Part shown: piece after piece, positions 45,662-45,846 of the stretch
Layout: every line of letters starts with the position of its first letter
Position numbering within the stretch: the first letter of the stretch is position 1
Source: Escherichia coli
GTDB lineage: Bacteria > Pseudomonadota > Gammaproteobacteria > Enterobacterales > Enterobacteriaceae
Length of the DNA stretch: 64,000 bases
Assembly (NCBI RefSeq): GCF_003334255.1
Contig: NZ_QOWU01000003.1
Direction: 5' to 3' (one strand)
Notes under the pieces: generated by a model
What the model saw: the letters and a program-made list of their open reading frames with translations, nothing else
The model's database searches: none
Told to the model about the DNA's origin: nothing
Position numbers and translations under genes: made by a program

Positions 45662-45669
45662 TCAAAAAG

Positions 45670-45700
45670 AAACCCCGGCACATGGCCGGGGCTTCAGATT
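45670..45700 (+). terminator. Hairpin terminator after dacB
   Basis: AAACCCCGGC-CACATG-GCCGGGGCTTCAG. Confidence 0.6.
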
Positions 45701-45724
45701 ATTGACAAAGTGCGCTTTGTTTAT

Positions 45725-45822
45725 GCCGGATGCGGCGTAAACGCCTTATCCGGCCTACAAAATCGTGCAAATTCAACATATTGCAATTCTCTTGTAGGCC
45801 TGATAAGCGTAGCGCATCAGGC
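45725..45822. repeat. REP pair (BIME) in dacB-obgE intergenic region
   Basis: GCCGGATGCGGCGTAAACGCCTTATCCGGCCTAC and inverted GTAGGCCTGATAAGCGTAGCGCATCAGGC. Confidence 0.85.
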
Positions 45823-45846
45823 TGATTTGGCGTTTATCATCAGTGA

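What the first reader, a model, noticed from the sequence alone, without database searches (positions are those of the whole stretch)
45662..45846. REP/BIME clusters mark several convergent or operon-boundary intergenic regions
Near-identical REP units (GCCGGATGCGGCGTAAACGCCTTATCCGGCCTAC / GCCTGATGCG…TCAGGCCTAC) occur here and at 12264-12346, 19739-19832, 28521-28593 and 52189-52219, sometimes as inverted pairs. They are host-genome repeats that can act as mRNA stabilisers or gyrase/IHF sites and RAYT targets, not CRISPR.
Basis: seen in the sequence. Interest (0 to 1): 0.2.

Follow-up and report, generated by a model that had tools for sequence, protein, structure and literature searches.

The report
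Ordinary E. coli REP/BIME intergenic repeats
The flagged sequences are the well-known REP/BIME palindromic repeats that sit after genes in Escherichia coli; the named one is a 150-base BIME-1 mosaic element present in only about a third of E. coli genomes, so the finding is correct but ordinary.

Summary
The window is E. coli chromosome, 99.9% identical to K-12 at about 3.285-3.349 Mb. All lie in the 9.3% of the window that is non-genic.

The named site (dacB> <obgE) is a textbook BIME-1 at 45695-45844: flank, y REP, conserved L linker with an IHF-like core, z1 REP, flank. It sits beside a terminator hairpin (45669-45694). Sites 1 and 3 are single y+z2 pairs. Site 2 is a z1-like unit inside a 93-nt nested palindrome. 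Site 5 is a decayed single y.

Only the four units at sites 1 and 4 keep the GTAG that the REP transposase requires. Presence across 5,426 complete genomes is 36% for site 4, 89-92% for sites 1 and 2, and about 100% for sites 3 and 5.

This is already-known biology and low interest.

One side observation may be worth a look. At four paralogous loci, and at this locus in E. whittamii, the BIME-1 unit lies in the T-tract of a bidirectional terminator, and the whole hairpin (18-27 nt) is duplicated on both sides.

The parts
45695..45844 (.). BIME-1 composite element (150 nt): left flank, y REP, L linker, z1 REP, right flank. It is present or absent as one block among E. coli genomes.
   Evidence: Paralogous copies in other genomes align over query positions 5-155 of 157 at 87-90% identity. 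Alignment A7 defines the ends as CAGATT...CATCAGT. The block is present in 1,932 of 5,426 genomes. Empty alleles were read directly.
45724..45758 (-). y-type REP, 35 nt, with GTAG intact and the AA.GC bulge.
   Evidence: -20.9 kcal/mol. Its + strand is identical to the published y query TGCCGGATGCGGCGTAAACGCCTTATCCGGCCTAC (PMC11208160).
45759..45793 (.). L linker of the BIME-1. It contains the IHF-like core ATTCAACATATTG at 45771-45783, which has one mismatch to WATCAANNNNTTR.
   Evidence: The linker is itself dispersed, with a median of 14 places per genome. It is conserved among paralogues. It gives a sub-threshold match to Rfam ES036 (31.5 bits against 37.6). The exact IHF consensus is not matched.
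45794..45822 (+). z1-type REP, 29 nt, with GTAG intact. It carries the IS621 target ATCAGGCCTAC on the - strand.
45669..45694 (.). Terminator hairpin shared by dacB and obgE. It is not a REP. On the - strand it is followed by a T-run and lies downstream of the BIME in the obgE transcript.
   Evidence: The same hairpin is the only content of the spacer in empty alleles, and it is conserved in Citrobacter.
12264..12300 (-). z2-type REP, 37 nt, with GTAG intact. It starts 14 nt after the dolP stop codon.
   Evidence: E=1e-16.
12314..12348 (+). y-type REP, 35 nt, with GTAG intact. The stem has one compensatory C-G to T-A change and one A.C mismatch. It ends 14 nt before the yraQ stop codon.
19739..19831 (.). 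93-nt nested palindrome. The outer arms are GCCTTATCCGA/TCGGATAAGGC and CCTACA/TGTAGG, which resemble y half-sites. They enclose a z1-like unit at 19769-19797(+) in which GTAG has become ATAG.
   Evidence: -54.3 kcal/mol, z=-6.2..
28517..28553 (+). z2-like REP in which GTAG has become GTTG.
28559..28593 (-). y-like REP with GTAG lost. It lies 13 nt after the infB stop codon. Together with the z2-like unit it matches Rfam naRNA4 on the transcribed (-) strand.
   Evidence: RF02564, 68.1 bits against a gathering score of 59.5, at 28520-28590 on the - strand..
52188..52222 (-). Solitary decayed y-derived hairpin, with both GTAG and the AA.GC bulge lost. It lies 6 nt after the mlaB stop codon.
   Evidence: (family D4, 69% identity), (z=-2.6; E=0.02). 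It is single-copy and fixed in 5,425 of 5,426 genomes.

Best explanation
These are canonical E. coli REP (palindromic unit) sequences arranged as BIMEs: eight units in five spacers at the 3' ends of genes.

The named locus is a BIME-1, also described as a RIP or RIB element. It is a 150-nt mosaic of a y REP and a z1 REP in inverted orientation, separated by the conserved L linker that carries an IHF-type site, with two flanking motifs that are themselves an imperfect inverted repeat. It lies in what was the T-tract of the bidirectional terminator shared by dacB and obgE.

Shown here: identity, architecture, copy number, extragenic placement, strong predicted folding, and present/absent polymorphism.

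Inferred from published work on the family:
1. The obgE transcript reads through z1, L and y before it reaches the intrinsic terminator. The REP hairpins in its 3'UTR can therefore block 3'-to-5' exonucleases and/or partly attenuate transcription through Rho.
2. In DNA, the linker can bind IHF between two arms capable of forming cruciforms.
3. The units that keep GTAG (sites 1 and 4) remain substrates for the single-copy REP-associated tyrosine transposase (TnpA-REP, also called RAYT), which is encoded outside this window. This enzyme is the likely agent of spread.
4. The GTAG-less units at sites 2, 3 and 5 are immobile remnants, kept or tolerated as 3' stem-loops.
For: Sequence and chance tests.

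Unit lengths, GTAG and bulge match the definitions in PMC8266576 and PMC3333891.

BIME-1 architecture:
- y plus z1 with a long conserved linker that is itself dispersed.
- The whole 150-nt block is repeated at other loci at 87-90% identity: rlmC/artJ, satP/mog, pitA/uspB, fepA/entD, dppB/dppA and yqjF/yqjG.
- A size of about 140 bp and present/absent behaviour are both described in PMC1187871.

Folding is far below that of shuffled sequence, with z from -4.2 to -6.6 at sites 1-4.

All units lie after stop codons, in 3 convergent and 2 co-directional spacers. This agrees with the roughly 60% convergent and 40% tandem split in bioRxiv 10.64898/2026.03.23.713779.

An intrinsic terminator on the - strand lies downstream of the BIME.

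Intact units are polymorphic (36%, 92%), while the decayed units at sites 3 and 5 are fixed. This is what a mobile-then-decaying element would produce.
Against: - There is no experimental evidence for these particular loci.
- The IHF core has one mismatch to the consensus (read from the sequence).
- About 64% of complete E. coli genomes lack the focal element, so it is dispensable.
[quoted passage not shown] Their effects depend on context.
- Four of the eight units lack the GTAG that TnpA-REP needs.
- The genome set is a biased sample, so the percentages are not population frequencies.
Confidence: 0.93

Rival explanations
1. The sites are CRISPR-like arrays or other regularly spaced repeat arrays.
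For: Only that short GC-rich palindromes recur. One unrelated weak Rfam CRISPR-DR22 match lies at 16573-16609 (E=3.2).
Against: Each locus has at most two units, and these are in inverted rather than direct orientation. No tandem array is found. No CRISPR family match lies at any of the sites. The repeats are dispersed across the chromosome at dozens of places per genome.
Confidence: 0.01
2. Some of the sites, above all site 5 and possibly sites 2 and 3, now act as locus-specific 3' stem-loops or terminators kept by selection. On this view their REP ancestry has no bearing on present function.
For: Site 5 is single-copy at megablast sensitivity and present in 5,425 of 5,426 genomes, with at least 99% identity in 5,159. 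It has lost both GTAG and the bulge. Site 3 is present in 5,423 of 5,426 genomes. Both lie 6-13 nt after a stop codon.
Against: Site 5 folds only modestly better than shuffled sequence (z=-2.6) and has no T-run that the terminator scan accepts. High identity across E. coli is also expected for any neutral spacer next to conserved genes. The 5' arm of site 5 is still clearly derived from y (family D4).
Confidence: 0.3
3. The y+z2 pair at site 3 encodes a functional small RNA of the naRNA4 family, which binds HU and helps condense the nucleoid. The site 4 linker would similarly encode the sRNA ES036.
For: RF02564 naRNA4 matches at 68.1 bits, above its gathering score of 59.5, on the transcribed strand. 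ES036 matches the linker at 31.5 bits. PMC4550694 reports that HU binds naRNA4.
Against: The Rfam model in effect describes any y+z2 pair. The other sites score below threshold (22-40 bits). [quoted passage not shown]
Confidence: 0.1

Closest known systems
BIME-1 (also called RIP or RIB), the IHF-binding class of E. coli bacterial interspersed mosaic elements
   Same: Site 4 has y plus z1 in inverted orientation, a single copy per locus, a long conserved L linker with an IHF-type core, a size of about 140-150 bp, a position at the 3' end of transcription units, and present/absent behaviour among isolates (PMC3333891; PMC1187871).
   Different: Nothing material. The IHF core differs from the family consensus by one base (AATTCAACATATTG against AATTCAATATATTG). 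The E. coli copy lacks the flanking hairpin duplication seen at other loci.
BIME-2 (tandem y+z2 arrays; gyrase sites)
   Same: Sites 1 and 3 pair a y unit with a z2 unit across a short linker (13 nt tail-to-tail at site 1; 5 nt head-to-head at site 3).
   Different: BIME-2 elements are described as multiple tandem copies. Here there is one pair per locus, and the site 3 units have lost GTAG.
REPINs (REP doublets forming hairpins) mobilised by RAYT, first described in Pseudomonas
   Same: Two inverted REPs plus a spacer behave as one unit that is present or absent. The associated transposase is single-copy and encoded elsewhere.
   Different: The E. coli BIME-1 unit also carries conserved non-REP flanks and an IHF linker. 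In the predicted minimum-free-energy fold each REP mostly pairs with itself rather than the two REPs pairing with each other.
Rfam RF02564 naRNA4 (RNA derived from REP325)
   Same: Site 3 matches above the gathering score on the transcribed strand.
   Different: It is a single y+z2 pair inside the infB-rbfA spacer, not the 12-unit REP325. The nucleoid role of naRNA4 is itself disputed.
MITEs such as the Neisseria Correia element
   Same: Small size, terminal inverted repeats, an internal IHF site, flanking direct repeats, and insertion polymorphism.
   Different: The flanking duplication is a whole terminator hairpin of 18-27 nt rather than a fixed 2-9 bp. No DDE-type parent insertion sequence is known. 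The review PMC3184786 states that REPs lack MITE signatures.

Membership tests
E. coli REP / palindromic unit (y, z1, z2) | Imperfect palindrome of 35 (y), 29 (z1) or 37 (z2) nt that folds into a stem-loop | tested here: met
   All eight units have these lengths and fold at -9 to -21 kcal/mol. The lengths are those given in PMC8266576.
E. coli REP / palindromic unit (y, z1, z2) | Conserved GTAG tetranucleotide 5' of the palindrome | tested here: inconclusive
   Met by 4 of 8 units, both units at site 1 and both at site 4. The others read ATAG, GTTG, CCAT and TCAG and are decayed copies.
E. coli REP / palindromic unit (y, z1, z2) | Conserved AA.GC mismatch (bulge) in the stem | tested here: met
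   Present in 7 of 8 units. It is lost only at site 5.
E. coli REP / palindromic unit (y, z1, z2) | Exclusively extragenic and present in high copy number per genome | tested here: met
   8 of 8 units lie in the 9.3% of the window that is non-genic. The median is 38-40 places per genome, and that figure is capped by the tool.
BIME-1 | One y and one z1 in inverted orientation, single copy, separated by the long conserved L linker | tested here: met
   Site 4 only. The linker is dispersed, with a median of 14 places per genome.
BIME-1 | IHF binding at the L linker | not testable with these tools
   Only a one-mismatch match to WATCAANNNNTTR at 45771-45783. An exact search does not hit the linker.
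BIME-1 | [quoted passage not shown] | tested here: met
   A 150-nt block, present in 1,932 of 5,426 genomes. Description from PMC1187871.
BIME-2 | y plus z2 with a short linker | tested here: met
   Sites 1 and 3.
BIME-2 | Multiple tandem copies per locus | tested here: not met
   Each locus has one pair. They are therefore best called single BIME-2-type units.
TnpA-REP / RAYT substrate | GTAG plus a bulged stem on single-stranded DNA, with a CT cleavage site nearby | tested here: inconclusive
   The sequence requirements are met by four units. Cleavage itself cannot be tested. No tnpA-REP gene is annotated in the window.
Rfam RF02564 naRNA4 | Score at or above the gathering threshold of 59.5 bits | tested here: met
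   Site 3 scores 68.1 bits. Sites 1 and 4 score 22-40 bits and fail. HU binding was not tested.
CRISPR array | Direct repeats separated by unique spacers of constant length | tested here: not met
   No CRISPR family matches at the sites.

The most novel reading that the evidence does not exclude
The 150-nt BIME-1 unit integrates at bidirectional intrinsic terminators through breaks placed symmetrically 2-3 nt beyond each foot of the hairpin. This duplicates the whole hairpin, so the repeat is 2-3 A's, the stem-loop-stem, then 2-3 T's (18-27 nt in all). That would be a structure-defined, variable-length target duplication unlike that of any classical transposon.

It would give BIME-1 a concrete insertion footprint and explain why these elements sit at the 3' ends of genes. 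The footprint was seen at pitA/uspB, rlmC/artJ, yqjF/yqjG and satP/mog, each with a matching empty allele, and at dacB/obgE in E. whittamii.

The observation itself looks solid. What I cannot establish is whether it is already described, for example in Bachellier et al. 1997 (Genetics), which I could not read.
Probability: 0.3. Interest if true: 0.55.

Novelty: already known. Interest (0 to 1): 0.2.

Why it matters
The finding as given matters little. REP/BIME elements have been described since the 1980s, and these copies are identical to those in K-12. It is still useful for annotation:
- It separates the four units that could still be mobile, because they keep GTAG, from four decayed remnants.
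- It identifies the dacB-obgE element as a dispensable BIME-1, present in about 36% of genomes. This element changes the obgE 3'UTR and removes the T-tract of the dacB terminator.
- It shows that the Rfam naRNA4 match at infB-rbfA is simply a y+z2 pair.

The side observation could matter more. A terminator-hairpin duplication footprint would be direct sequence evidence of how BIME-1 units insert. The most recent literature I read still calls the REP insertion mechanism 'not fully established'.

Tried and rejected
1. In one search I compared the window with K-12 without gaps, found 211 differences in 10 kb, and said the window was a diverged strain. That was an artefact of a 1-base indel. BLAST gives 99.93% identity, and all five spacers are identical to K-12.
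2. A loose palindrome regex gave 26 hits against 10.7 in shuffles. It was too permissive to be used as a test, so I replaced it with blastn-short.
3. The K-12 RefSeq record in the collection lists no repeat_region features. I could not cross-check against the curated REP numbering.
4. The exact IHF consensus WATCAANNNNTTR does not hit the linker. Only a one-mismatch reading fits.
5. MAFFT pushed the 146-nt indel to the end of the alignment. I read the junctions directly instead.
6. The terminator scans called nothing at sites 3 and 5. They found only coding-region matches near sites 1 and 2.
7. Bachellier et al. 1997 (PMC1207841) is not held. A search for the paper on REPs within 15 nt of stop codons did not find it. 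The stop-codon distances I report are therefore not tied to a cited rule.
8. For the dacB-obgE empty allele I considered simple deletion between short repeats (CAG..GATTA). I rejected this because the junction sequence does not fit.

Full report
**Where the window comes from.** The 2.3 kb around the finding matches all 5,426 complete E. coli genomes, under dacB and cgtA/obgE. The window is colinear with K-12 MG1655 at about 3,284,736-3,348,735. It is 99.93% identical over the first 50 kb and 99.76% over the last 14 kb. An earlier statement of mine that it differed by 211 bases in 10 kb was wrong; a 1-base indel had shifted the register.

- The quoted 34-mer occurs twice at up to 3 mismatches, against 0.00 expected.
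- The z2-type pattern occurs once, against 0.00 expected.
- A blastn-short rescan with y, z1 and z2 queries gives matches with E<1e-3 only at sites 1-4, plus a weak match at site 5.
- Only 9.3% of the window is non-genic, yet all eight units lie there, each downstream of a stop codon.

**Anatomy of the units.** Written in the published orientation with GTAG first, the unit lengths are 35 nt (y), 29 nt (z1) and 37 nt (z2), as defined for E. coli in PMC8266576.

| Site | Spacer | Units | State |
|---|---|---|---|
| 1 | dolP> <yraQ | z2 12264-12300(-) and y 12314-12348(+), tail-to-tail, 13-nt linker | Both keep GTAG. The y stem has one compensatory C-G to T-A change and one A.C mismatch. Each unit lies 14 nt from a stop codon. 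|
| 2 | yhbW> <mtr | z1-like 19769-19797(+) | GTAG has become ATAG. The unit is enclosed by two inverted y-like half-sites. |
| 3 | <rbfA <infB | z2-like 28517-28553(+) and y-like 28559-28593(-), head-to-head | GTAG lost in both. The site is inside the nusA-infB operon. |
| 4 | dacB> <obgE | y 45724-45758(-) and z1 45794-45822(+) | Both intact. |
| 5 | <ibaG <mlaB | y-derived hairpin 52188-52222(-) | Solitary; both GTAG and the AA.GC bulge lost. |

- Site 2 as a whole (19739-19831) folds into one 93-nt nested hairpin (-54.3 kcal/mol, z=-6.2).
- The + strand of the site 4 y unit is letter-for-letter the REP query published in PMC11208160.
- All spacers fold far better than shuffled sequence, with z from -4.2 to -6.6. 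Site 5 is the exception at z=-2.6.

**The named locus is a BIME-1.** PMC3333891 defines BIME-1 as z1 plus y, single copy, separated by a long, well-conserved L linker that often carries an IHF site. Site 4 fits this definition.
- The 43-nt linker is itself dispersed, with a median of 14 places per genome.
- It contains ATTCAACATATTG at 45771-45783, one mismatch from WATCAANNNNTTR. An exact search does not hit it.
- I searched with the whole 157-nt region. Genomes that lack the block at this locus returned paralogous copies covering positions 5-155 at 87-90% identity.
- Alignment of copies from rlmC/artJ, satP/mog, pitA/uspB and fepA/entD shows that the non-REP flanks belong to the element. Its ends are CAGATTGTTGAC... 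and ...GTCATCAGTC, which form an imperfect inverted repeat.
- In window coordinates the element is 45695-45844.
On the - strand this hairpin is followed by a T-run. An obgE transcript would therefore run through z1, L and y before reaching it.

**Polymorphism.** The table gives the number of the 5,426 complete genomes in which one place covers at least 80% of a query made of the spacer plus flanks.

| Site | Genomes | Share |
|---|---|---|
| 1 | 4,972 | 92% |
| 2 | 4,837 | 89% |
| 3 | 5,423 | 99.9% |
| 4 | 1,932 | 36% |
| 5 | 5,425 | about 100% |

- At site 4 the other genomes have a 40-nt spacer. It consists of the hairpin followed by TTTTGC, joined directly to the obgE stop codon.
- This present/absent behaviour of BIME-1 is already known (PMC1187871, citing Bachellier 1997).
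- The site with the best-preserved units is the least widespread, and the decayed sites 3 and 5 are fixed.
- The genome set is not a random sample, so these are counts rather than population frequencies.

**Other species.** I scanned one genome per species using DacB as the query and read the spacers.
- The BIME-1 is present at this locus in E. albertii, E. whittamii and Escherichia sp. MOD1-EC7003.
- It is absent from the E. coli representative and from Escherichia sp. E1V33.
- Citrobacter keeps the same hairpin and carries its own type of REP. Salmonella carries its own REP pairs.
- Yokenella, K. michiganensis and one Enterobacter have only a terminator of 32-45 nt.
- This spacer has therefore been occupied by REPs repeatedly, and the Escherichia insertion is old.

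**How it most likely works.** No experiment on these loci is available, so function is inferred from work on the family.
- REPs in 3'UTRs can block 3'-to-5' decay and can act as partial Rho-dependent terminators. These effects are local and depend on context (bioRxiv 10.64898/2026.03.23.713779).
- The BIME-1 linker binds IHF (PMC3333891, PMC2817692).
- Gyrase cleaves y units of BIME-2 (PMC6379681).
- TnpA-REP needs GTAG and the bulge, and tolerates no GTAG mutation (PMC8266576). By that criterion only the four units at sites 1 and 4 can still be substrates.
- No tnpA-REP gene is annotated in the window.

**Rfam.** Site 3 matches RF02564 naRNA4 above threshold on the transcribed strand (68.1 bits against 59.5). 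The other sites match below threshold. The model in effect recognises a y+z2 pair. The nucleoid-condensing role proposed in PMC4550694 is contested by the 2026 preprint. The site 4 linker resembles RF02751 ES036 but scores below its threshold.

**Not CRISPR.** Each locus has at most two units, in inverted orientation. There is no array and no CRISPR family match at any site.

**Side observation: duplicated terminator hairpins.** At four paralogous BIME-1 loci where both allele types could be compared, the empty allele has one bidirectional terminator. The filled allele has the element 1-3 nt into the T-tract, with the whole hairpin repeated on the far side.

| Locus | Duplicated segment | Length | Genomes filled |
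|---|---|---|---|
| pitA/uspB | CGAGCGGGTCAG(TTTA)CTGGCCCGCTT | 27 nt | 1,941 |
| rlmC/artJ | AAGCCGC....GCGGCTT | 18 nt | 3,192 |
| yqjF/yqjG | AAACGAGGAG.....CTCCTCGTTT | 25 nt | 78 |
| satP/mog | ATCCCCCCGC...GGGGGGAT | about 21 nt | 467 |

- The length differences between alleles (173, 170, 178 and about 171 nt) equal the element plus the duplication.
- The yqjF/yqjG filled allele is rare and nearly invariant, which points to insertion rather than deletion.
- At the focal locus, the E. whittamii copy has the second hairpin, and its stem carries a compensatory C-G to A-T change. The E. coli, E. albertii and MOD1 copies lack the second hairpin.
- The fepA/entD and dppB/dppA copies show no long duplication.
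- The duplications are symmetric: 2-3 A's, the stem-loop-stem, then 2-3 T's. This suggests breaks just beyond each foot of the hairpin on the two strands. That is inference only.
- I found no description of this in the papers I could search. The review PMC3184786 says REPs lack MITE signatures. The key 1997 paper was not available, so I make no claim that this is new.

**Verdict.** This is already-known biology, and interest is low.

Noticed in passing
L011 (pitA/uspB), L009 (rlmC/artJ), L020 (yqjF/yqjG) and L010 (satP/mog), compared with empty alleles L014/L015, L016, L104 and L105; L024 (E. whittamii dacB/obgE); left junction in the window at 45692-45695: The 150-nt BIME-1 unit sits 1-3 nt into the T-tract of a bidirectional intrinsic terminator. 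The whole hairpin (18-27 nt: 2-3 A's, stem-loop-stem, 2-3 T's) is directly duplicated on both sides. I did not find this described in the searchable literature.
   Followed up: partly
window about 19768/19769 (site 2); L103 (strain W12-1): In one genome an IS110-family IS621 element is inserted exactly at the foot of the z1-like unit (...ATAATACAAG|ACCTGATAAG). IS621 is the bridge-RNA recombinase whose natural target is ATCAGGCCTAC in REPs (PMC11208160). Exact copies of that target occur in the window at 12290-12300(+) and 45794-45804(-).
   Followed up: partly
L102 (strain HCM-24C-3), the counterpart of window 12250-12362: In some genomes the dolP-yraQ BIME is replaced by an unrelated GC-rich palindrome (...CCCTAACCCTCTCCCCAAAGGGGAGAGGGGAC...). 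From memory this resembles the boxC repeat, but I did not test that.
   Followed up: no
window 19739-19831: Site 2 is not a standard BIME. Two inverted y-like half-sites (GCCTTATCCGA...CCTACA) enclose a z1-like unit and give one 93-nt nested hairpin (-54 kcal/mol). How it arose is unexplained; a unit inserted within another unit or a decayed three-unit BIME are possibilities.
   Followed up: partly
window 28460-28485: A hairpin GGGGC-TGTTA-GCCCC flanked by an A-run and a T-run lies between the REP pair and the rbfA start codon, inside the infB-rbfA spacer. It looks like a bidirectional terminator, but the consensus scan did not call it.
   Followed up: no
window 45759-45801: Rfam family RF02751 (ES036/CssrF sRNA, 43 nt) matches the BIME-1 L linker end to end at 31.5 bits, below its gathering score of 37.6. 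That family may in effect model the BIME-1 linker.
   Followed up: no
L027-L039 (Citrobacter and Salmonella dacB-obgE spacers): The same spacer in Citrobacter and Salmonella carries those species' own REP types, at positions different from the Escherichia element. The terminator hairpin AAACCCCGGC...GCCGGGGTTT is conserved between Escherichia and Citrobacter.
   Followed up: partly
window 26492-26663(+), 26893-27007(-), 33289-33389(-), 44076-44197(-), 33481-33554(-), 37340-37423(-): Expected Rfam features of this K-12 region: SraG sRNA, the S15 leader, the rimP leader, the greA leader, and two tRNAs (metY, leuU).
   Followed up: no
window 30689-30970 and 21293-21412: Imperfect in-frame tandem repeats inside coding sequence: a 24-nt period in infB and units of about 33-45 nt in deaD (families D1 and D2). 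They are unrelated to REPs.
   Followed up: no
L052 (Escherichia sp. ESNIH1) and L056 (Enterobacter asburiae): The interval between dacB and the next long reverse-strand reading frame is 745 nt and 1,177 nt in these two genomes. Extra sequence or genes appear to be inserted there.
   Followed up: no
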